Source of the DNA: a virus
Lineage: Duplodnaviria > Heunggongvirae > Uroviricota > Caudoviricetes
Virus record (IMG/VR): IMGVR_UViG_2600254997_000025
Length of the DNA: 10,888 bases
Strand: one strand, 5' to 3'
Shown here: positions 1,677 through 10,888 of the stretch, piece after piece
Layout: each line of letters starts with the position of its first letter
Position numbering within the stretch: the first letter of the stretch is position 1
Position numbers and translations under genes: made by a program
Notes under the pieces: model-generated
Told to the model about the DNA's origin: nothing
Database searches by the model: none
What the model saw: only the letters and a program-made list of their open reading frames with translations

Positions 1677-1680
1677 TCAT

Positions 1681-1740
1681 GGGTGGTAGCCCGGACGGGG
1701 GTAGGAATACCGGCCTTCAAGGAAACCGGCCAGCCCGAAG
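1681..1740 (-). ncRNA. Candidate P4 CI-RNA-like immunity RNA (seqB-like segment)
   Basis: On the transcribed minus strand this segment carries CCUUGAAGG, UUCCUAC and CUACCACC. These are complementary to CUUCAAGG and GUAGGAA in the two flanking repeats, and to GUGGUAG (revcomp of 1655-1662) in the downstream repeat only. It is GC-rich with internal GGCCGG/CCGG self-complementarity. Confidence 0.35.
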
Positions 1741-1856
1741 GCTGCCCCGCCCGGACCACCATTATCTGACAGAGGCTACGGTTTAAAAACCACAGCCAGA
1801 AAAACAGGTGTGCCGAAGCAACGACGTAAAAAAAAGACGCATGGCGCGTCATATGT

Positions 1857-1885
1857 CGCCTTGAAGTAACTCGGGTTCCTACGCC
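1857..1885 (-). promoter_or_regulatory. seqA-like antisense target repeat in the leader of the leftward operon
   Basis: Second copy of the CCTTGAAGTAAC...GTTCCTACGC pair, about 20-50 nt downstream of the predicted promoter on the minus strand. Confidence 0.35.
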
Positions 1886-1913
1886 CGGCTGCCGATTTTG
1901 CGGCAGCGGAAAA

Positions 1914-1943
1914 ACTATATCCGCAAATGCCGGAAAAAGGCAA
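1914..1943 (-). promoter_or_regulatory. Candidate sigma70 promoter for the leftward immunity/replication operon (PLE-like)
   Basis: Minus strand reads TTGCCT (revcomp of 1938-1943), an 18-nt spacer, then TATAGT (revcomp of 1914-1919). A 7-bp hairpin (GCTGCCG/CGGCAGC, 1888-1907) sits at the predicted start site. Confidence 0.35.
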
Positions 1944-1956
1944 GCCAGTGTATGGG

Positions 1957-2989
1957 TCCACCACATATTGCAATTTTTATTCTCTTTTAAAATATATTCC
2001 ACGGGCGTCATTAGTGCGAGCGCCTTGTGGGGTCTTTTGCTGTTATACAGCACCAGATATTCCGCCAGCTTCTGGTTAAATAGCGCCAGATCTTCAAAGA
2101 GTAAAATCTCATTAAATTCAATAAACTGCTCTCTTAACGTCCGGTTAAACGTTCACAGATAGCGTTTCATTTTTTGGCGTGTAGGGATAGGTCCAGAGGT
2201 TGTTTGATAGCGGCTTTCCTGCAGCGTTTTTGTCGAAGTTTCCCAGGAACTCTTTTCCGTTATCTGTGATTATCTGGCTGATACCGACCGGGAACAACCG
2301 GGCTGCGCGGCTGAAGAAGTGATTGACGATATCACTGTTGAGTGACGGCACAGCCAGCGCCAGCGCGTAATTGCTGCATTCGTCGATCATGGTGATGACA
2401 TAGCGACGCAGTTCGCCCATTCTGAGCTCAATGGCGTCCATCCCAATGAGCTCACCTGTCTTTACCGGGCGGTAGTGCTTTGGCCTGCGGGGTTTGGCAG
2501 ACCGCTTTTGACAAGCAGTGCCTTCCCCCGCGATCCCAGACGCACAGGTATCATCCGCATTTTATCATGTGCGGCAGCGATCATTCTGCCGATGGTGGAA
2601 ACACTCGGACAGGCCAGATAGCGCTGTTCGCACCAGGGCTTCAGGCGAACAAAAATCTGCTCTTTACCGAGGTTCGGCAGCTCTGTCCTGAGGCGTCGAA
2701 TCTCTTTCAGCACATCGGGATGCCAGTGTTTTTTTCGTCGCACCAGAGGTGCCTTACTGTGCGGGATTAGCCCCTCAGGTCCTTCCTTGTTCAGTAACTG
2801 ACGCCACCAGTAAAGCGTGCGGCAGGACACGCCAAAGGCTTCAGAAGCTGCAGAAATACCGTGTTTATCCCAGAAGTGCAGAGCCTTCATTCTCATTGTT
2901 GCTATATCAGCCATCACTGAAAGCCTCAACGCATAATCGGCCGTTTGGTAGTACTTAGGATAGCCAACCATCAGATGCTGCATTTGCAT
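1957..2989 (-). pseudogene. Degraded DDE transposase (IS481-like), split over three frames
   Basis: Track ORF 2462-2989 has an N-terminal HTH-like region (GISAASEAFGVSCRTLYWWRQLL). ORF 2145-2441 has an rve-type core with ITDNGKEF. The start of ORF 1427-2053 has the transposase C-terminal signature [18 protein letters not shown]. The pieces are in different frames with gaps. Confidence 0.5.
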
Positions 2990-3035
2990 AGTGCAATCTC
3001 CCCTTACTTATCCGGAGGCAATTGCAATATCTCTG
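1957..3035 (-). mobile_element. IS remnant of about 1.08 kb inserted between vis and the immunity region; boundaries approximate
   Basis: ATATTGCAATT at 1966-1976 is an inverted copy of AATTGCAATAT at 3020-3030, a candidate terminal inverted-repeat core. Only 11 bp is shared, so the ends are not precisely defined. Confidence 0.4.
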
Positions 3036-3082
3036 TGAACTTACACAGCCAGAAAAAGGGAGTTTTTGCAGAGCGGGCATCA

Positions 3083-3349: not shown

Positions 3350-3451
3350 CGGGCTACCTCGTTAATGTCCATACAGCACCGGATAAGTCCGTCCGGCTTC
3401 GGGTAGCGCTTTATTTTGTGAATATTTTCAGCAGACGCAACAGGGGGGATT

Positions 3452-3469
3452 TGTTCCGGCAGCCTTACA
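3452..3469. promoter_or_regulatory. TGT-N12-ACA dyad, candidate Delta/Ogr activator site for a leftward late promoter upstream of vis
   Basis: TGTtccggcagccttACA seen directly. The dyad centre is about 110 nt from the vis ATG, compatible with a site centred near -55 and a leader of about 55 nt. Confidence 0.4.
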
Positions 3470-3495
3470 ATGCTTGTGTATTTTTTGTTCATCTC

Positions 3496-3525
3496 CACTT
3501 AAAGTCATTTAAAGCCACTTAAAGC
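3496..3525. repeat. Three tandem 10-bp direct repeats (CACTTAAAGT / CATTTAAAGC / CACTTAAAGC)
   Basis: Seen directly, with one-helical-turn periodicity, in the divergent intergenic region. Confidence 0.6.
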
Positions 3526-3628
3526 AATTCGTAATTTTTATAGTGAAATACAAATCGTTTTTTCTTATTCATTCCCGGCGAATTAATAAAAACAAACAGT
3601 AATAAACAGCACAAAAAGCCCATCAACG

Positions 3629-3733
3629 GGTGAACAGTGGTGAACAGACGGTGAACAGTCATTACTGCAATTGTTCACCCTTTAACTTACTGTATTACTT
3701 ATCTTTTTTCTTATGGTGAACAGAGGTGAACAG
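3629..3733. repeat. Iteron cluster: five direct GGTGAACAG copies plus one inverted TGTTCACC; resembles P4 alpha-binding iterons (crr/ori-like)
   Basis: GGTGAACAG at 3629-3637, 3639-3647, 3650-3658, 3715-3723 and 3725-3733, spaced 10-11 bp apart. Inverted TGTTCACC at 3672-3679. As recalled, P4 alpha binds TGTTCACC octamers in ori and crr. Confidence 0.55.
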
Positions 3734-3810
3734 TAAAATATAAAAAACAAACAGTAAGCCGGTTTTTCCTGCGACCTTTTCCTGGCTTGCCGGTCTGAGG
3801 ATGAGTCTCC

Positions 3811-3900: not shown

Positions 3901-4635
3901 ATGTCTGACAACACCATCCCTGAATATCTGCAACCCGCACTGGCACAACTGGAAAAGGCCAGAGCCGCCCACCTTGAGAACGCCCGCCTGATGGATGAGA
4001 CCGTCACGGCCATTGAACGGGCAGAGCAGGAAAAAAATGCGCTGACGCAGGCCGACGGAAACGACGCTGACGACTGGCGCACGGCCTTTCGTGCAGCCAG
4101 TGGTGTCCTGAGCGACGAGCTGAAACAGCGCCACATTGAGCGCGTGGCACGCCGGGAGCTGGTACAGGAATATGACAATCTGGCCGTGGTGCTGAATTTT
4201 GAACGCGAACGCCTGAAAGGGGCGTGTGACAGCACGGCCACCGCCTACCGGAAGGCACATCATCACCTTCTGAGTCTGTATGCAGAGCATGAGCTGGAAC
4301 ACGCCCTGAGTGAAACCTGTGAGGCGCTTGTCCGGGCAATGCATCTGAGCATTCTGGTACAGGAAAATCCGCTCGCCAACACCACCGGGCATCAGGGCTA
4401 CGTCGCACCCGATAAAGTTGTCATGCAGCAGGTGAAATCATCTTTGGAACAGAAAATAAAACAGATGCAAATCAGCCTCACCGGCGAGCCGGTTCTCCGG
4501 CTGACCGGACTGTCAGCGGCAACGCTCCCGCACATGGATTATGAGGTGGCAGGCACACCGGCACAGCGCAAGGTGTGGCAGGACAAAATAGACCAGCAGG
4601 GAGCAGAGCTTAAGGCCAGAGGACTGCTGTCATGA
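3901..4635 (+). CDS. sid: Sid-like capsid size-determination (external scaffold) protein, 244 aa
   Basis: Internal ATG at 3901 of track ORF 3835-4635, with GAGGAG (3888-3893) at a 7-nt spacer. Gives 244 aa (MSDNTIPEYLQPALAQLEKARAAHLENARLMDE...). First gene of a sid-delta-psu triplet, and its stop overlaps the delta ATG (ATGA at 4632-4635). The earlier ATG at 3835 lacks an RBS. Confidence 0.75.
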   Translation: MSDNTIPEYLQPALAQLEKARAAHLENARLMDETVTAIERAEQEKNALTQADGNDADDWRTAFRAASGVLSDELKQRHIERVARRELVQEYDNLAVVLNFERERLKGACDSTATAYRKAHHHLLSLYAEHELEHALSETCEALVRAMHLSILVQENPLANTTGHQGYVAPDKVVMQQVKSSLEQKIKQMQISLTGEPVLRLTGLSAATLPHMDYEVAGTPAQRKVWQDKIDQQGAELKARGLLS

Positions 4636-5132
4636 TTTACTGCCCGTCGTGTGGACATGTTGCTCACACCCGTCGCGCACATTTCATGGACGATGGCACC
4701 AAGATAATGATTGCACAGTGCCGGAATATTTATTGCTCTGCGACATTTGAAGCGAGTGAAAGCTTTTTCTCTGACTGTAAAGATTCAGGAATGGAATACA
4801 TTTCAGGCAAACAGAGATACCGCGATTCACTGACTTCTGCCTCCGGCAGTATGAAACGCCCGAAAAGAATGCTTGTTACCGGATATTGTTGTCGGAGATG
4901 TAAAGGCCTTGCACTGTCAAGAACATCGCGGCGTCTGTCTCAGGAAGTCACTGAACGTTTTTATGTGTGCACGGATCCGGGCTGTGGTCTGGTGTTTAAA
5001 ACGCTTCAGACCATCAACCGCTTCATTGTCCGCCCGGTCACGCCGGACGAACTGGCAGAAAGCCTGCATGAAAAACAGGAACTGCCGCCAGTACGGTTAA
5101 AAACACAATCATATTCGCTGCGTCTGGAATGA
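4632..5132 (+). CDS. delta: Delta-like late-gene transactivator with tandem Ogr-type zinc fingers, 166 aa
   Basis: Two Cys4 units: CPSCGHVAH...CRNIYC and CCRRCKG...CTDPGC. This is the duplicated Ogr-like architecture of P4 Delta, and the 166-aa length matches as recalled. Confidence 0.8.
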   Translation: MIYCPSCGHVAHTRRAHFMDDGTKIMIAQCRNIYCSATFEASESFFSDCKDSGMEYISGKQRYRDSLTSASGSMKRPKRMLVTGYCCRRCKGLALSRTSRRLSQEVTERFYVCTDPGCGLVFKTLQTINRFIVRPVTPDELAESLHEKQELPPVRLKTQSYSLRLE

Positions 5133-5205: not shown

Positions 5206-5808
5206 ATGGAAAGCACAGCCTTACAGCAGGCCTTTGACACGTGTCAGAATAACAAAGCAGCATGGCTGCAACGCAAAAATGAGCTGGCTGCGGCCGAACA
5301 GGAATATCTGCGGCTTCTGTCAGGAGAAGGCAGAAACGTCAGTCGCCTTGACGAATTACGCAATATTATCGAAGTCAGAAAATGGCAGGTGAATCAGGCC
5401 GCCGGTCGTTATATTCGTTCGCATGAAGCCGTTCAGCACATCAGCATCCGCGACCGGCTGAATGATTTTATGCAGCAGCACGGCACAGCACTGGCGGCGG
5501 CACTGGCACCGGAGCTGATGGGCTACAGTGAGCTGACGGCCATTGCCCGAAACTGTGCCATACAGCGTGCCACAGATGCCCTGCGTGAAGCCCTCCTGTC
5601 CTGGCTTGCGAAGGGTGAAAAAATTAATTATTCCGCACAGGATAGCGACATTTTAACGACCATCGGATTCAGGCCTGACGCGGCTTCGGTGGATGACAGC
5701 CGTGAAAAATTCACCCCTGCGCAGAACATGATTTTTCGCGTAAAAGTGCGCAACTGGCATCACGTCAGTCTGTGTAAAATTCCCCGAAAATCCGCCTGTT
5801 TTTACTGA
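5206..5808 (+). CDS. psu: Psu-like polarity-suppression / capsid decoration protein, 200 aa
   Basis: Third gene of the late triplet, with AAAGAG upstream of the ATG. N-terminus MESTALQQAFDTCQNNKAAWLQRKNELAAAEQEY. The call rests on synteny plus recalled similarity. P4 Psu is recalled as about 190 aa, so the C-terminus may differ. Confidence 0.7.
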   Translation: MESTALQQAFDTCQNNKAAWLQRKNELAAAEQEYLRLLSGEGRNVSRLDELRNIIEVRKWQVNQAAGRYIRSHEAVQHISIRDRLNDFMQQHGTALAAALAPELMGYSELTAIARNCAIQRATDALREALLSWLAKGEKINYSAQDSDILTTIGFRPDAASVDDSREKFTPAQNMIFRVKVRNWHHVSLCKIPRKSACFY

Positions 5809-5841: not shown

Positions 5842-5916
5842 GCATGCGTTTCCCTGCCTCATTTTCTGCAGACCGCGCCATTCCCGGCGCGGTCTGAGCG
5901 TGTCAGTGCAACTGCA

Positions 5917-5944
5917 TTAAAACCGCCCCGCAAAGCGGGCGGGC
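5917..5944 (-). terminator. Candidate intrinsic terminator for the minus-strand cargo operon
   Basis: On the minus strand GCCCGCCCGC, loop TTT, GCGGGGCGG form a GC-rich stem (about 8 bp with one bulge) followed by TTTTAA. It lies about 35 nt downstream of the last cargo gene stop and is not followed by a T run on the plus strand. Confidence 0.4.
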
Positions 5945-5960
5945 GAGGCGGGGAGAGCAT
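5942..5960 (+). other. P2/P4-type cos site (cohesive-end 19-mer), uncleaved prophage form
   Basis: GGCGAGGCGGGGAGAGCAT matches 17 of 19 positions of the P2/P4 cohesive end GGCGAGGCGGGGAAAGCAC as recalled from memory. It sits directly after psu, as in P4. Confidence 0.6.
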
Positions 5961-5978
5961 TGCGCGCAGGTAAAAAAA

Positions 5979-6668
5979 TCATTTATTTTGTAATGCCGCA
6001 TCAAATCTGGTCTTGAGATCTTGGAATGGGATAACGAGTTTATCGATATAATCTTTATTATTATTTTGTAGAATTGCTTCAACAAAATCATTTAGAGGTG
6101 CATAGTTTTCTAATACTTTAGAATCGATAAAATCTTTATAGGACATACATTCAGCACCAATGCTAAGGCTTTCACCTATATACTTTTGTTCAAGAGATCT
6201 AATACAAGGAAAACCAATATCGTTCTCTCGTAGGGCTATAGAAATATTTTTGATTAATTCAGTTATTAACATTTCATCATTAGTTGGTGAAAATACAGAT
6301 GAATCTCTATTTTTCCTGAATTGATGTACCCAGCAAAAATATTGGCATAGATAGAATCTTGTACTATCAATATAATATTGATCCGACGATAGGTCATTGT
6401 GATCTTTAATATAACATAGCCTTCCTAAAAAACCATTTGCAGCACTAAGTAATGTTAACCCCCAACGTCCGATTTCAAGATCTCTTGCTTTTTTAAAATT
6501 ATAAGCACGTTCATCCTCTTTAATTCTCTGTTCACTTTCATATTTCAACTTATTTTTAAATGATTCTAACTCTCTTTTATCAATATGTTGTAAAAAAGCC
6601 TTACAAACAAATCCAATAATTGCAAATGAAATGCTTGATGACAAAATACCTTCCCAAAAGCTACTCAT
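5979..6668 (-). CDS. Small protein, 229 aa, with one predicted N-terminal transmembrane helix; third gene of the RT cassette (possible DRT1 partner / effector)
   Basis: ORF in track. Hydrophobic N-terminus FWEGILSSSISFAIIGFVCKAFL. The ATG (6668-6666) overlaps the TGA (6667-6665) of the nitrilase ORF, indicating translational coupling. AT-rich codon usage like the rest of the cassette. Confidence 0.65.
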   Translation of the reverse strand: MSSFWEGILSSSISFAIIGFVCKAFLQHIDKRELESFKNKLKYESEQRIKEDERAYNFKKARDLEIGRWGLTLLSAANGFLGRLCYIKDHNDLSSDQYYIDSTRFYLCQYFCWVHQFRKNRDSSVFSPTNDEMLITELIKNISIALRENDIGFPCIRSLEQKYIGESLSIGAECMSYKDFIDSKVLENYAPLNDFVEAILQNNNKDYIDKLVIPFQDLKTRFDAALQNK

Positions 6669-8512
6669 TTCTCACCTCGCTCTAATAGAGCATTATAGTC
6701 AAACCCTGGAGGATTGTGTTTAATAGTATCGGAGTTAATTCTGAATGAACGATATTGAGCCTCTCTCAATGCATATATATTTAAAGTAGTAGTTAGGATG
6801 CAATTGTTTTCCCCACCTTTTATATATATCTTATTTGAAATAGTGCTACTGGTCGGTTGTAGAACACAAGAACCGCCATAATGCGAAGTATTTGATTGAG
6901 CCACATAACAATGTAAATCCCGTGTCGCTGACTCAGTGATATGTTGATAATAATTTATATCTTGATTCCATACGCAAGCAAATAAAATATCCAACTGCGA
7001 ACGAAATAATGCTCTATGCTCGATATTAGCCAGTTCAAAACAGTTGTATGTAGAAAATGATACGTTTTTCCACTTAATCAAATGATACCGTTGTTTACTA
7101 GGTTTAGGAGAGGATATTTTTAACCTTAAAGAATTCAGCATCGTAATCTCACTAGGTGCGTAATGATTTTTCACTCGAAAAACTAACATACTGGATTTGT
7201 GTTTAAAGTTTGAAGTATAAGGCAGCATTTCAACCAAAATATTATATGCGCGTTCGTTAATAACCCAATGCTCTAATCCGAAAATCAAAGATATTTGTTT
7301 TCTCCTTGAATGTGCTGCCATAAAAGGTAACCACGACACAGGAATTGATAACTCAGGGAGTAGTAATATCTGCACATTTTCTTCAGTTGCCGAGTTGAGA
7401 ATACGATAAAGGTTTCTTTGCCGTTCATAACTTAAATTTGGAGACTGATCTTTTCTGCAAGCACTTTCAATATTACGACGTTCAACTCTCATATTTGCCA
7501 ACGCAACTTTTATTGTGTCATTACCACTTCTATCATCAATTCCTACCTTTATTTCAAGAGCTTTATTATCTTTTATCTTAGTAACAGAGCAATTTTTTAA
7601 GTGATGCTTATTTTCATGCGTAAACTTATGTAGTTTTCTTGTATGAAGAGCATCAATCAAATCGAAAAGCTGCTTTTCATCAGCATGAATATATCTAGGG
7701 GTTTTATTTAATTTATCATTATCAAGTGGAATACCATGCATCTTACTGTATAAATTCTCCTCAGTAAGATCTCCTTTATATTTAGTATAGTTAGCTAAAG
7801 GCCAAGACACTAGATTATGACGAATCAAATTACTGCTTCTAAATCTTTCAATTAGAACAGACATTCCATCGGACTGTTTAATTAAAGATTTCAAACCTTC
7901 CAAAGCTCTATTTTGTGGCTCTTTATCACCTAAAATGACATTTAAATCTAACAAAGCCAAATTCAAACAAAGAGAAATATCAATGTATTTCTGCATTCCA
8001 TTTTTAAGTTTTGGAGATATAACACTATCACCTTCCTTCCACTTCATTTTATTAATTGATTCTTTAATTTGTTTGTAAAAGGCGATTGAAAATCCATATT
8101 TTCTTGTAATTAATGTATACGATAGAACTTTCTCCCATAACCGACTGAACCTTAGAGAATTTTCACCTTTAAAAAACAGCGTTATTTGCTTTAAGGTATT
8201 CTCATTCGATGGAAGATTGCAAAGCCTATGAGCTAAGATATGTGATGATATATATTTTGATAATTCAGTTTCATTCTCTGCCAAACCTACAATACTTCTA
8301 AATTTATTTGCCGAACCATCAAGTAATATATCATAAGCAAATTTATCGAGATCGCTAGATATATGTTCTTCCGGTAAAAAACGAAATGCACTGCTTCTGT
8401 TCTCAATTTCTTGTTTGAAGACTTGTAAACCAGCCAAACTATGATCTTTATTGAAATAATGAAAAATCAATTTATCCTTTTGAATTGGTAATTCATGATA
8501 ACTCTCGGTCAA
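6665..8512 (-). CDS. Nitrilase (C-N hydrolase) domain protein; probably the C-terminal part of an RT-nitrilase fusion (annotated start is TTG)
   Basis: Nitrilase-superfamily catalytic triad context: Glu in ILLLPELS, Lys in LVFRVKNHYAPSE, Cys in TYNCFELANIEHR, plus HYGGSCVLQP. The frame is open 30 codons upstream of the TTG, back to the slippery heptamer in the RT gene. The first in-frame ATG is only at about codon 155. Confidence 0.8.
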   Translation of the reverse strand: MTESYHELPIQKDKLIFHYFNKDHSLAGLQVFKQEIENRSSAFRFLPEEHISSDLDKFAYDILLDGSANKFRSIVGLAENETELSKYISSHILAHRLCNLPSNENTLKQITLFFKGENSLRFSRLWEKVLSYTLITRKYGFSIAFYKQIKESINKMKWKEGDSVISPKLKNGMQKYIDISLCLNLALLDLNVILGDKEPQNRALEGLKSLIKQSDGMSVLIERFRSSNLIRHNLVSWPLANYTKYKGDLTEENLYSKMHGIPLDNDKLNKTPRYIHADEKQLFDLIDALHTRKLHKFTHENKHHLKNCSVTKIKDNKALEIKVGIDDRSGNDTIKVALANMRVERRNIESACRKDQSPNLSYERQRNLYRILNSATEENVQILLLPELSIPVSWLPFMAAHSRRKQISLIFGLEHWVINERAYNILVEMLPYTSNFKHKSSMLVFRVKNHYAPSEITMLNSLRLKISSPKPSKQRYHLIKWKNVSFSTYNCFELANIEHRALFRSQLDILFACVWNQDINYYQHITESATRDLHCYVAQSNTSHYGGSCVLQPTSSTISNKIYIKGGENNCILTTTLNIYALREAQYRSFRINSDTIKHNPPGFDYNALLERGEK

Positions 8513-8580
8513 CGTAAAGCCTTTCTCATCATTCGCTGCCTGTTTGATGAATCCATTAAGGGTTCGCTCTATGAATTTTA

Positions 8581-9540
8581 TTACTTCTTCACCTTTATCT
8601 TCTTTTTTAATGTCCGGGGATGAAAAACTAAAAGAATATCATCCACATAGCGACCGTAGTACGATGGATTAATTTTTGATTTAATATCTTTATCAAAACC
8701 CATTAAATACCAATTAGATAATATGGCAGAAGAAGTAAATCCAATTGGAATGCCTTTTGATGAAGGAGTTGAATGTGTCACACCAATATATGGAGATATT
8801 TTCTCTCTGTATTTTTGATGCATCAACCTCAATTTACTATTCAACAACATAGAAAGAGCTTTAATTTCTTCTAATTGTTCTTCGTCAATAATTCTATCAA
8901 TGGCATCAAAATCTATATCTATATTATAATAAAAACCCTTAAGATCCAGAGAAAGAATTGCAACATCATTTCGCTCTTTTTCTATAACTTCTATCGCTTT
9001 ATCGATACCACCATCTCGCCATTTATTATAATTATCAATGTATCTTTCAAAGATATTTTTTGAGGAGTTTTTTGGCGCATCGAAACTATTCTTAGAATAT
9101 TTTTTTATTACTTTTGATATTCTATTTCCATAAACCGAATCAGAAAACTTGTCATCTAGCATTGAACCAACAAAGATAGACCAGAGTGTTTCTATTAAAT
9201 ATATTTCAATAGGAGCAACGATCAAATAATTTACAGCACCTACTTTGTATTCATCTGATGTCTTATTATTACTTAAAAAAAGAGCTCCGCTCGTTTGCTC
9301 AATATCCAAATGGCTATCAATTATTTTTGGTAATAATTCAACATCAATTTTATTTAGCCACTCATTAAAGTTAATGTCATTATTATTTTCAAAAAAATCA
9401 ACCACTTTTTCTATTTTTTCGTCATAGAGAGAATCTTCAAATTGAGCGATTTCTTCCTTTAGGAAAAAATTTAAGTTTTCGTAGTAAGCATATGACTTAA
9501 GACAATTATATGCACTAACAACTATATCTTTTGTAATCAT
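8581..9540 (-). CDS. Reverse transcriptase (UG/Abi-type, defence-associated), 319 aa in this frame
   Basis: RT palm motifs: LSLDLKGFYYNIDIDF, GIPIGFTSSAILSNWYLMGFD (the GxPQG..S..L.N.YL-type motif) and YYGRYVDDILLVF (the YxDD catalytic motif). The ORF ends 6 codons after an A_AAA_AAG heptamer. Confidence 0.85.
   Translation of the reverse strand: MITKDIVVSAYNCLKSYAYYENLNFFLKEEIAQFEDSLYDEKIEKVVDFFENNNDINFNEWLNKIDVELLPKIIDSHLDIEQTSGALFLSNNKTSDEYKVGAVNYLIVAPIEIYLIETLWSIFVGSMLDDKFSDSVYGNRISKVIKKYSKNSFDAPKNSSKNIFERYIDNYNKWRDGGIDKAIEVIEKERNDVAILSLDLKGFYYNIDIDFDAIDRIIDEEQLEEIKALSMLLNSKLRLMHQKYREKISPYIGVTHSTPSSKGIPIGFTSSAILSNWYLMGFDKDIKSKINPSYYGRYVDDILLVFHPRTLKKKIKVKK
8602..8608 (-). other. A_AAA_AAG slippery heptamer at the RT/nitrilase frame junction
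   Basis: On the minus strand ACA TTA AAA AAG AAG reads A_AAA_AAG in the RT zero frame. A -1 shift here continues GAA GAT AAA GGT ... with no stop into the nitrilase ORF, exactly 30 codons to the TTG at 8512. Confidence 0.5.
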
Positions 9541-9631
9541 AACGCATCATTCCGTGTATAAGTCTGTTATAGATGAAAGTAAAACTGAAATTGATTAATA
9601 CCTAACAAAAACATACAGAAAAAATCAATTA

Positions 9632-10888
9632 TTAATATTTTTTTGCAAAATCAAATGGTGTTACGAAAGTCTCACGATTTGCTGATAGGAAATCCGCCCA
9701 CCATTGCATCATCAATCGACGTTCGTCCAAATGCTCTGAAGTATGGATATAAGCTGCACGAACATTATTGCGCTCCGAGTGGCTTAACTGACGTTCTATC
9801 GCATCATCACTCCAAAGCCCCGACTCCCCCAAAGCACCACCCGCCATTGTTCTAAAACCATGCCCACATACTTCCGTTTGTGTGTCGTAGCCCATAGTCC
9901 TGAGCGCATTATTAACTGTGTTTTCGCTCATAACTTTATTGGGATCATGATCACCGGGAAACAGTCTAGGATTATCTCCACTAAGCTTCTTCAACTCATC
10001 CAGCAAAGCTAGAGCCTGAGTGCTCAATGGAACAATATGTTCCTCTTTCATCTTCATCCCACGATAGGAGTAACGCACACCTTCGATTTCTTCACGCCGC
10101 GCCGGTATCCGCCAGCAGGCGTTATCAAAATCAAACTCATCCCATCGGGCAAATCGCATCTCACTAGAGCGAACGAAGGTAAGTAGAGATAACTCGACTG
10201 CAATACGCGTCATTTTGCGGCCACGATATGCCGCAAGGCGTGCCAGAAACTCAGGGAAACGGCTGGAAGGTAGAGCTGGATAGTGTCGTGCTTTAGTTGT
10301 CGATAACGCACCAGCCATATCGCTAGCCGGGTTCGAGTCGATATAATCGTTCTGTACGGCATACCGCATAATGGCCGTGACGCGCTGTTGCAGGCGCTGA
10401 GCGACGTCGTGTTTACCACTGACATCAACTTTTTTAATCGGGGCTAATAGGTGGCTAGTTTTGAGCTGGCGAATGTCGGACGAACCGATATGAGGGAAGA
10501 TATAAAGCTCAAGATAGCGAAGAACACGCGATCGATGGTCTTCACTCCAGCGCTTGTTACTGGCATGCCATTCGCGAGCAATGGTTTCGAAGGTATATAC
10601 CCCCGAATTCTCGGCCTGAGCTTCTTTCTGTTCGGCTTTTGGGTCAATGCCCTGCACTAACAGCTTTTTAGCTTCGTCGCGCTTTGCTCTTGCCTGAGCA
10701 AGCGTCACTGTAGGCCAAACACCAAAAGCGAGGCGATCCTCTTTTTTGTCAGAGGGGCGTCGGTATTTCATGCGCCAGTATTTAGAACCCTTGGCCGAAA
10801 CCTCGAGATACAAACCGCCGCCATCGGCCATTTTGTATGTTTTGTCTTTTGGCTTTGCGGTCTCGACCTGTCTGGCGTTGAGCTTCAT
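9632..10888 (-). CDS. int: P4-type tyrosine integrase (site-specific recombinase), 418 aa
   Basis: ORF in track. N-terminus MKLNARQVETAKPKDKTYKMADGGGLYLEV is typical of P4-family integrase arm-binding domains. C-terminal catalytic region with R (TFVRSSE), HGFR and the Tyr context VRAAYIHTSEH. The ATG sits at the last 3 bases of the window. Confidence 0.9.
   Translation of the reverse strand: MKLNARQVETAKPKDKTYKMADGGGLYLEVSAKGSKYWRMKYRRPSDKKEDRLAFGVWPTVTLAQARAKRDEAKKLLVQGIDPKAEQKEAQAENSGVYTFETIAREWHASNKRWSEDHRSRVLRYLELYIFPHIGSSDIRQLKTSHLLAPIKKVDVSGKHDVAQRLQQRVTAIMRYAVQNDYIDSNPASDMAGALSTTKARHYPALPSSRFPEFLARLAAYRGRKMTRIAVELSLLTFVRSSEMRFARWDEFDFDNACWRIPARREEIEGVRYSYRGMKMKEEHIVPLSTQALALLDELKKLSGDNPRLFPGDHDPNKVMSENTVNNALRTMGYDTQTEVCGHGFRTMAGGALGESGLWSDDAIERQLSHSERNNVRAAYIHTSEHLDERRLMMQWWADFLSANRETFVTPFDFAKKY

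What the first reader, a model, noticed from the sequence alone, without database searches (positions are those of the whole stretch)
5900..9640. Sharp compositional discontinuity marks the cargo boundaries
From about 5960 to about 9630 the sequence is visibly AT-rich, with Lys/Asn/Ile-rich proteins and long A/T runs, unlike the GC-rich backbone on both sides (sid-delta-psu and integrase). This is consistent with recent horizontal acquisition of the cassette from a lower-GC donor into a conserved satellite scaffold.
Basis: seen in the sequence. Interest (0 to 1): 0.4.

Follow-up and report, generated by a model that had tools for sequence, protein, structure and literature searches.

The report
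AT-rich defence cassette in P4 satellite
The AT-rich block is real, but it is the already-described anti-phage "hotspot" of P4-like phage satellites, here holding a published reverse-transcriptase defence system; its low GC is a stable trait of such cargo, not a sign of recent arrival from a low-GC donor.

Summary
Window 5969-9612 has GC 0.31 against 0.53 on the left and 0.48 in int. GC3 is 0.20-0.25 against 0.47-0.65, and synonymous codon usage differs at p~1e-100. The block is the cos-adjacent psu-int hotspot of an E. coli P4-like satellite (Rousset et al. 2022). Its cargo is the validated "RT-nitrilase + 1TM" (UG5-large DRT) system of E. coli E101: the TM protein is identical, and the RT matches over the 400 aa available.

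Cassette swapping at this slot is real, and spread within E. coli is recent, because 33 genomes carry copies >=99.6% identical in two int backgrounds. Composition, however, says nothing about recency or donor:
- All 44 distinct cargos sampled have GC 0.29-0.38.
- Orthologues in Serratia, Dickeya, Aeromonas and others are saturated at four-fold sites yet keep GC4 ~0.22, in hosts with GC4 0.7-0.9.

The "scaffold" is conserved only on the left, where the junction is fixed at 5967|5968. int is mosaic or unrelated between loci, and its 3' end travels with the cargo. The split RT gene and the altered psu end are almost certainly homopolymer assembly errors. Already known; low interest.

The parts
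5206..5808 (+). psu (polarity suppression / capsid decoration gene), the last conserved backbone gene on the left. The assembled ORF is 200 aa, with an aberrant C-terminus caused by a 1-nt deletion in a T-run near 5732-5736. Relatives encode 190 aa.
   Evidence: Pfam Psu E=4e-86; comparison with L001
5923..5942 (-). Conserved GC-rich hairpin followed by TTTTAAT on the minus strand. It is terminator-like for the leftward cargo operon and lies in the backbone next to cos.
   Evidence: Terminator scan; >=0.79-1.0 conserved across 43 other-cargo loci
5942..5961 (.). cos core (GGCGAGGCGGGGAGAGCAT), a rarer variant of the P2/P4 cohesive-end sequence.
   Evidence: Pattern match and conservation; P4 reference sequence in Rousset Table S2A; the hotspot is described as directly adjacent to cos
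5967..5968 (.). Left cargo junction. Conservation across 43 distinct cargo types is >=0.91 up to 5967, then 0.33 at 5968 and <=0.3 beyond.
   Evidence: blast breakpoints at 5968 against L002/L003
5979..6668 (-). 229-aa single-pass membrane protein with a TM helix at residues ~8-26. It is the partner/effector of the RT-nitrilase and is identical to protein 2 of the validated E101 system.
   Evidence: PADLOC RTasTM E=5e-164; identity to the pFR76 protein; hydropathy
6665..9540 (-). UG5-large RT-nitrilase gene, 958 aa in relatives. As assembled it is split into 8581-9540 (319 aa) and 6665-8512 (615 aa) by a 1-nt deletion in a T6 run (coding strand) at 8622-8626, directly after the YVDD motif.
   Evidence: PADLOC RT_UG5-nitrilase, residues 1-316 and 344-958 of a 958-position profile; Pfam RVT_1; adding one base restores a 958-aa ORF with 3 aa differences from L001; invariant YVDD, E730, K791, C834
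9541..9631 (-). 91-nt spacer between the int stop codon and the RT start. The native promoter and RBS are presumed to lie here or in the int 3' end. No conserved structured element was found.
   Evidence: The active pFR76 clone starts at window 9663; alignment of upstream regions; the promoter scan found nothing convincing
9632..10888 (-). P4-type tyrosine integrase (418 aa). Codons at 9632-9690 are AT-rich and co-vary with the cargo. A mosaic breakpoint lies near 10222/10223.
   Evidence: Pfam Arm-DNA-bind_3, Phage_int_M, Phage_integrase; mismatch maps; similarity start points

Best explanation
The AT-rich block is the cargo of the cos-adjacent psu-int hotspot of an E. coli P4-like phage satellite integrated at tRNA-Leu. 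The cargo is a two-gene anti-phage system transcribed leftward from next to int. It comprises a UG5-large reverse transcriptase fused to a C-N hydrolase (nitrilase) domain, and a small single-pass membrane protein.

Shown:
- It is the same system, by sequence, that Rousset et al. cloned from E. coli E101 and showed to protect against phage.
- Cassettes at this slot are exchanged between satellites. The left junction is fixed to the base just past cos. The right junction lies at or inside the 3' end of int, and recombination tracts can run ~600 bp into int.

Inferred:
- Exchange uses homologous recombination in psu/cos and in int, possibly primed by cos ends as Rousset et al. proposed.
- The low GC is not a donor footprint. 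It is the equilibrium composition of the mobile defence-gene pool that circulates through this hotspot, maintained at synonymous sites over saturating divergence in high-GC hosts.
- The most plausible reasons are an AT-biased mutation/selection regime for such cargo and/or benefit from H-NS-type silencing of costly immunity genes.

The apparent splitting of the RT gene and the altered psu C-terminus in this window are homopolymer-length assembly errors.
For: Identity of the element:
- Psu, Ogr/Delta and integrase Pfam hits; P4 immunity RNAs by Rfam.
- Annotation of 99.7%-identical complete genomes; source contig with tRNA-Leu/ahr flank.

Identity of the cargo:
- PADLOC RT_UG5-nitrilase plus RTasTM.
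- The TM protein is identical, and the first 400 nt and 400 aa are identical except one base, to pFR76 'RT-nitrilase + 1TM' of E. coli E101.
- Published descriptions.

Hotspot behaviour:
- TIR and gop-beta-cII cargos in otherwise 97-99% identical left backbones.
- 44 cargo types in 64 loci.
- Left junction at 5967|5968 in 43 types; right junctions at 9613-9691 or no similarity at all.

Mosaicism:
- 0.3% divergence from psu to 10222, against 8.7% for 10223-10888.
- In L004, psu differs by 1.7% against 0.3% for the cargo.

Composition is general and stable.

Assembly errors: 3 substitutions against 4 indels in 8.5 kb of host core genes, and 0 substitutions against 7 indels in the IS481 copy. All four private indels in the satellite lie in base runs. 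Only one contig on record encodes the truncated product.
Against: - No expression, H-NS binding or phage assay was done for this copy, and the reason for AT-richness is inferred.
- I could read only the title and abstract snippet of the H-NS preprint.
- The full E101 insert sequence was truncated in the held supplement, so identity is verified only for the first 400 nt, the first 400 aa of the RT and the whole TM protein.
- A real frameshift cannot be strictly excluded without reads. Another genome (FORC_031) is annotated with a frameshifted RT, and three carry IS insertions in it.
- Many database relatives are unnamed metagenomic sequences, so an unseen low-GC lineage cannot be ruled out.
Confidence: 0.9

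Rival explanations
1. One reading: the cassette arrived recently from a donor of lower genomic GC, and its AT-richness is an un-ameliorated donor signature.
For: Composition is strongly atypical. Copies in E. coli are nearly identical, so spread within the species is recent.
Against: Every one of 44 unrelated cargos in this slot has GC 0.29-0.38. Orthologues that are saturated at four-fold sites keep GC4 at 0.21-0.27 in hosts with GC4 0.70-0.92. The named relatives closest to it (60-88% identity) are Enterobacterales and Aeromonas; nearly all the rest are other Gammaproteobacteria, and none is a ~30% GC organism. The int-RT-TM linkage is conserved across genera.
Confidence: 0.08
2. The cassette in this strain is a decaying pseudogene. 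The RT frameshift, the psu frameshift and the IS481 insertion are real steps of satellite degradation.
For: The IS481 insertion has a 6-bp target duplication and is a real event. In other genomes the RT gene is interrupted by IS1 or ISEc60, or annotated as frameshifted, and many copies sit in IS1-truncated P4 remnants.
Against: The same contig shows an indel excess in conserved host genes (holC, yjgR) and in the IS transposase, with almost no substitutions. This is the signature of homopolymer sequencing error. The truncated product occurs on one contig only.
Confidence: 0.1
3. The AT-richness is a by-product of protein-level constraint (Lys/Asn/Ile-rich proteins), not of nucleotide-level bias.
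For: K+N+I is 23-30% in cargo proteins against 10-16% in backbone proteins.
Against: The bias is strongest at synonymous positions: GC3 is 0.20-0.25 and GC4 is 0.22. Unrelated protein families in the same slot share it.
Confidence: 0.02

Closest known systems
P4-like satellite psu-int (cos-adjacent) anti-phage hotspot (Rousset et al. 2022, PMC9122126)
   Same: The position is the same: between psu and int, directly after cos. The flanking genes are the same. Other satellites carry different cargos at the same junction, and the very cassette found here is one of the paper's validated systems.
   Different: Nothing essential. Details added here are the base-exact left junction, the variable right junction inside int, the mosaic breakpoint at ~10222, and the uniformly low GC of all cargos. 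I did not find these stated in the parts of the papers I read.
'RT-nitrilase + 1TM' of E. coli E101 (plasmid pFR76), classified as UG5-large, class 3 UG/Abi RT (Mestre et al. 2022, PMC9226505)
   Same: The TM protein is 229/229 identical. The RT is identical over the 400 aa available, except K73I. The first 400 nt of the insert are identical except one base. The operon layout and flanks are the same.
   Different: The window's assembly has a 1-nt deletion that splits the RT gene, probably an artefact. Relative to L001 there are also V907I and H913N.
DRT11, a UG5-large system of Sinorhizobium meliloti (PMC13436386)
   Same: An RT fused to a C-terminal nitrilase domain. Both catalytic domains are required, and the protection is abortive-infection-like.
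   Different: DRT11 lacks, and does not need, the TM partner. It is plasmid-borne in an alphaproteobacterium. Its sequence relationship to the window protein was not measured here.
DRT type 1 (UG1 RT-nitrilase, Gao et al. 2020)
   Same: The domain logic is the same (RT plus C-N hydrolase, often with a TM partner), and the nitrilase clade is related.
   Different: The RT clade differs. PADLOC Drt1a scores are 36-54 bits, against 657-1485 bits for the UG5 model.

Membership tests
P4-like satellite defence hotspot | Variable locus lying between psu and the integrase of a P4-like element | tested here: met
   Psu, Ogr_Delta and integrase Pfam hits flank the block. AlpA, DUF5375 and primase are on the same element.
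P4-like satellite defence hotspot | Directly adjacent to the cos packaging site | tested here: met
   The cos core is at 5942-5961, and variability starts at 5968.
P4-like satellite defence hotspot | Different gene systems at the same position in otherwise similar satellites | tested here: met
   TIR (L002), gop-beta-cII (L003), and 44 cargo clusters in 64 loci.
UG5-large DRT (class 3 UG/Abi RT) | Reverse transcriptase domain with a YxDD catalytic motif, of the UG5 clade | tested here: met
   Pfam RVT_1 E=1.9e-10. PADLOC RT_UG5-nitrilase is the top hit by far. YVDD is invariant in 26 homologues.
UG5-large DRT (class 3 UG/Abi RT) | C-terminal C-N hydrolase (nitrilase) domain with a Glu-Lys-Cys triad | tested here: met
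   PADLOC RTasNitrilase E=1.9e-34. E730, K791 and C834 (NCFE) are invariant. Pfam CN_hydrolase gave no hit at E<=0.01 on the window ORF, but it is precomputed on three homologues and reported by HHpred at 99.7% in Rousset Table S3.
UG5-large DRT (class 3 UG/Abi RT) | RT and nitrilase fused in one ~950-1000 aa protein | tested here: inconclusive
   As assembled the gene is split into 319 + 615 aa. It is a single 958-aa ORF in 99.9% identical copies, and adding one base restores it. The split is attributed to assembly error.
UG5-large DRT (class 3 UG/Abi RT) | Downstream transmembrane partner protein | tested here: met
   PADLOC RTasTM E=5e-164. There is one hydrophobic helix at residues 8-26. 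The protein is identical to the E101 protein.
UG5-large DRT (class 3 UG/Abi RT) | Confers anti-phage protection | not testable with these tools
   Shown experimentally for the E101 system by Rousset et al., measured at room temperature. The TM partner is reported as necessary.
DRT type 1 (UG1) | RT of the UG1 clade | tested here: not met
   Drt1a models score 36-54 bits, against 657-1485 bits for the UG5 model. Rousset et al. state that the RT belongs to a different clade.
Recently imported island carrying a donor's composition (amelioration model) | Composition drifts toward the host's with residence or divergence, and a donor lineage with matching GC exists | tested here: not met
   GC4 is 0.21-0.27 in seven orthologues despite JC distances of 0.44-1.6, against host GC4 of 0.70-0.92. 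No low-GC organism appears among the named relatives.

The most novel reading that the evidence does not exclude
The uniformly low GC of every cargo in the P4 hotspot (44 unrelated cassettes at 29-38% GC) may be actively maintained rather than inherited from donors. The persistence of GC4 ~0.22 through saturating divergence in hosts with GC4 0.7-0.9 points the same way. One possible reason is that H-NS-type silencing of AT-rich DNA keeps costly immunity genes quiet until needed.

A second part of this reading is that the exchanged module is 'int 3' end + cassette', anchored on the other side at a base-exact point 8 nt past the cos core. That would fit a cos-end-primed recombination mechanism rather than generic homologous exchange.
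Probability: 0.35. Interest if true: 0.45.

Novelty: already known. Interest (0 to 1): 0.15.

Why it matters
The finding adds little. Both the hotspot and this exact defence system are published, and the system has been tested experimentally. Its value is cautionary and methodological in three ways.

First, in this window base composition flags the defence cargo correctly. It also flags a conserved regulatory/iteron segment, and it misses a real IS insertion.

Second, low GC should not be read as 'recent, from a low-GC donor' for defence cassettes. The whole cargo pool of this hotspot sits at ~33% GC and stays there.

Third, apparent pseudogenes in old draft assemblies need an error check on neighbouring core genes before they are interpreted.

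The base-exact left junction and the int-3'-end linkage are small but testable clues to how cassettes are swapped.

Tried and rejected
- I first took locus L080 (also 10,888 bp) to be the window itself. Direct comparison showed a different cargo and 90% int identity, so I rejected this. The true source was found through the truncated RT product.
- Pfam gave no CN_hydrolase hit on the 615-aa ORF at E<=0.01. Domain assignment therefore rests on PADLOC profiles, invariant residues and published HHpred results.
- The cassette has no match in the plasmid or phage collections, even at blastn sensitivity.
- I looked for a conserved non-coding RNA or promoter upstream of the RT gene. The spacer is only 62-91 nt where int is present and is conserved only at the RBS. 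The promoter scan was no better than shuffles, with 14 sites against 20.5 expected.
- Rfam found nothing inside the cargo.
- The H-NS/immunity preprint could not be opened.
- The held copy of Rousset Table S2A truncates sequences at 400 characters, so full-length identity to pFR76 could not be checked.
- Structure prediction and the large profile searches were not used. The cargo was identified unambiguously without them.
Full report

Yes. The sliding-window profile shows GC ~0.26-0.36 across 6000-9600, against ~0.47-0.60 to the left and 0.43-0.52 to the right. A maximum-likelihood two-breakpoint segmentation of the whole 10,888-bp window places the low-GC segment at 5971-9693. GC is 0.310 inside and 0.525 outside, with a log-likelihood gain of 233.8.

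The left edge is abrupt: 50-bp bins read 0.64, 0.72, then 0.32, 0.26. The right edge is softer and lies about 60 nt inside the integrase gene.

At the coding level:
- The three cargo ORFs have GC3 of 0.20, 0.25 and 0.23, against 0.47-0.65 for the ten backbone ORFs and ~0.60 for neighbouring host genes.
- Synonymous codon usage differs from the backbone with chi-square 599 (41 df, p=4e-100).
- FYMINK residues are 34-42% against 14-34% (14-24% apart from one IS481-derived ORF).

K+N+I is 23-30% against 10-16%. Long A/T runs are only moderately enriched, at 4.1 against 2.35 per kb.

**2. What is it?**

The window is a P4-like phage satellite of E. coli.
- Pfam identifies Psu (5206-5808), Ogr/Delta (4632-5132) and a P4-type tyrosine integrase (9632-10888).
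- Rfam finds the P4 immunity RNAs: C4 antisense RNA, isrK and c4-a1b1 at 1679-1920.
- Twelve complete E. coli genomes match the whole window at 99.0-99.7% and annotate the same genes.

The exact source is the draft assembly GCA_000754045.1, contig ALNX01000056.1. There the element sits at tRNA-Leu next to ahr/yjgR, in a strain whose flank is 99.9% identical to EPEC E2348/69.

The AT-rich block holds two genes on the minus strand. PADLOC assigns them to RT_UG5-nitrilase and RTasTM. The 319-aa and 615-aa ORFs cover positions 1-316 and 344-958 of a 958-position profile, and RTasTM matches at E=5e-164.

The literature settles the identity:
- Rousset et al. 2022 described the psu-int locus, directly adjacent to cos, as a hotspot of anti-phage systems. 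They validated an 'RT-nitrilase + 1TM' system from E. coli E101.
- Mestre et al. 2022 classify it as UG5-large, a class 3 UG/Abi RT, and state that the TM protein is necessary.
- The sequence of the cloned insert (pFR76, Table S2A) starts at window position 9663 and is identical over the 400 nt held, except for one base (9323).
- The TM protein is identical over all 229 residues. The first 400 residues of the RT are identical apart from K73I and the frameshift.

In an alignment of 26 homologues (44-88% identity), the RT motif Y298-V299-D300-D301 is invariant. So are the nitrilase triad candidates E730, K791 and C834, the last within NCFE. The partner protein has one hydrophobic helix at residues 8-26.

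**3. The split RT gene is almost certainly an artefact.**

In the window the RT-nitrilase is broken into 319 + 615 aa by a 1-nt deletion in a T6 run on the coding strand (8622-8626), directly after YVDD. Adding one base restores a 958-aa ORF that differs from the nearest complete genome at 3 residues. psu is likewise frameshifted by T6->T5 near 5735, giving 200 aa instead of 190.

I tested the assembly itself on the same contig:
- 8.5 kb of conserved host genes differ from E2348/69 by only 3 substitutions but 4 indels in short base runs. These truncate holC to 68 aa and also hit yjgR.
- The IS481 copy in the window differs from another copy by 0 substitutions and 7 indels.

An indel:substitution ratio above 1 in core genes is the signature of homopolymer sequencing error. 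The truncated product is on record from this one contig only.

A real inactivation cannot be fully excluded. Other genomes carry IS1 or ISEc60 insertions in this gene, or annotate it as frameshifted. I rate a real inactivation at about 10%.

**4. Boundaries and what is actually exchanged.**

Satellites with TIR cargo (L002) or the P4 reference cargo gop-beta-cII (L003) match the window at 97-99% up to 5968, then lose all similarity.

Left junction. Anchoring 43 distinct cargo types on the cos core (window 5942-5961, GGCGAGGCGGGGAGAGCAT), per-position conservation is >=0.91 up to 5967. It falls to 0.33 at 5968 and to <=0.3 beyond. The junction is fixed to the base, 8 nt past the cos core match. 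A conserved GC-rich hairpin followed by TTTTAAT on the minus strand (5942-5923) lies just downstream of the cargo operon. It could terminate that operon (inference).

Right junction. The right side behaves differently.
- In 30 of 45 other-cargo loci the integrase has no DNA similarity to this one. Protein identity is ~35-40%.
- In the rest, similarity is 78-85% and starts between 9613 and 9691, most often at 9691. That is 59 nt inside int and almost exactly the compositional change-point at 9693.
- This agrees with de Sousa & Rocha, who found that integrase phylogeny is uncorrelated with the other P4 core genes.

Mosaicism among genomes carrying this same cassette:
- From psu to 10222, divergence from the window is ~0.3%. 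For 10223-10888 it is 8.7% (58 of 666 positions).
- In L004, psu differs by 1.7% while the cargo differs by 0.3%.

The exchanged tract therefore runs from about cos to ~600 bp inside int. The compositional block marks the non-homologous core of the exchange, not its limits.

The int-RT-TM linkage recurs in a Serratia locus (80% aa), an unnamed 88% relative and Dickeya (69%). A remnant of the int 3' end precedes the RT even in a Cronobacter locus with no int gene.

**5. Does low GC mean recent arrival from a low-GC donor?**

The evidence says no, on three counts.

Generality. In 64 IMG/VR P4-like loci with a delimitable cargo, I found 44 distinct cargo clusters. Every one has GC 0.288-0.384 (median 0.331), against a backbone of ~0.53.

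Stability.
- RT-nitrilase orthologues of 62-88% aa identity in Serratia, Cronobacter, Dickeya, Pantoea and Aeromonas have GC 0.31-0.33 and GC3 0.24-0.29. Their host flanks are 0.55-0.64.
- At four-fold sites the orthologues are saturated relative to E. coli: JC distance is 1.1-1.6, and 0.44 for the closest.
- GC4 is nevertheless 0.21-0.27 in all seven, against host core GC4 of 0.70-0.92.
- A donor signature undergoing amelioration would not stay flat through more than one substitution per site.

Donors. Of 370 relatives found, those at 60-88% identity are from Enterobacterales and Aeromonas. Nearly all named relatives at ~45% are other Gammaproteobacteria; the exceptions are a Methylotenera and a Candidatus Dadabacteria MAG. 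None is from a ~30% GC lineage.

What does support recency is sequence identity, not composition. The cassette occurs in 33 of 5,426 complete E. coli genomes. All copies are >=99.6% identical, always chromosomal and always between psu and int. They occur at two different chromosomal loci and with two int alleles.

The cassette is absent from the plasmid and phage collections. The near-identical host strain E2348/69 has a different island at this tRNA-Leu.

Why the cargo pool stays AT-rich is inferred, not shown. A search hit (title and abstract only) states that immunity genes are often on AT-rich mobile elements silenced by H-NS. I could not open that paper.

**6. How the cargo works (from the literature, not tested here).**

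The E101 system protects from its native promoter, and defence was measured at room temperature. It is reported to act against a podovirus-like phage, and the TM partner is reported as necessary.

The related DRT11 needs both RT and nitrilase catalytic residues. It behaves like abortive infection and works without a TM protein. The molecular trigger and the RT template are unknown. I found no conserved non-coding element next to the genes.

**7. Verdict.**

The feature is the known P4 hotspot carrying a known, validated UG5-large DRT system, so novelty is 'already known' and interest is low.

The most useful by-products are:
- the demonstration that low GC is a stable, general property of this cargo pool;
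- the base-exact left junction, in contrast to the variable right junction linked to the int 3' end;
- the exposure of the frameshifts as assembly errors.

Noticed in passing
window 1949-3046: An IS481-family element (99.4% identical to copies annotated 'IS481 family transposase') is inserted next to the P4 immunity-RNA region. It is flanked by a 6-bp direct repeat, AGCCAG, and is absent from the 12 closest complete genomes. Its GC is 0.50, so composition does not flag it. Its transposase is split into 175 + 98 aa ORFs by indels that look like assembly errors.
   Followed up: yes
window 3450-3750: This is a second AT-rich dip (GC 0.33), but it lies in conserved backbone. It holds six GGTGAACA repeats at 3629-3732, against 0.26 expected by chance. 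From memory they resemble the iterons bound by the P4 alpha protein (crr/ori-type).
   Followed up: partly
window 1679-1920 (minus strand): Rfam hits above gathering score to C4 antisense RNA (1679-1766), isrK (1830-1907) and c4-a1b1 targets (1868-1920). This is the P4 CI-RNA immunity region. The long ORF 1427-2053 that overlaps it is probably not a gene.
   Followed up: partly
L097 1-8600 (source contig, host flank) and window 1828, 3741, 5735, 8622: The source assembly GCA_000754045.1 carries run-length indels in core genes (holC called at 68 aa; yjgR also hit) at a rate exceeding substitutions. Any frameshift in this window should be treated as suspect.
   Followed up: yes
window 10222/10223 (inside int): There is a sharp mosaic breakpoint. 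Genomes with the same cassette are ~0.3% diverged up to 10222 and 8.7% diverged beyond. This implies recombination inside the integrase gene, between its catalytic C-terminal part and its N-terminal arm-binding and central domains.
   Followed up: partly
L005-L008 (E. coli E8, 3359, FORC_031, AF14): About 20 genomes carry the cassette in a decayed P4 remnant (IS1-truncated psu, then the cassette, then int) at a different chromosomal locus next to a sugar-PTS/nanE-like cluster. In some, the RT gene is interrupted by IS1 or ISEc60, or annotated as frameshifted.
   Followed up: partly
window 5955 and 5960 (cos core): This satellite has a minority cos variant, G at 5955 and T at 5960 (GAGAGCAT instead of GAAAGCAC). 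Only ~9-12% of the other cargo types sampled share it, as does a Klebsiella P4-like element in Rousset Table S2A. Whether it affects packaging by particular P2-like helpers is unknown.
   Followed up: no
L093 (Cronobacter turicensis): The RT-nitrilase+TM orthologue lies outside the psu-side slot of a P4-like satellite, whose own slot holds a SIR2-STAND gene. It is preceded by an int 3'-end remnant and followed by a TIR gene, which suggests tandem or decayed elements forming a small defence island.
   Followed up: no
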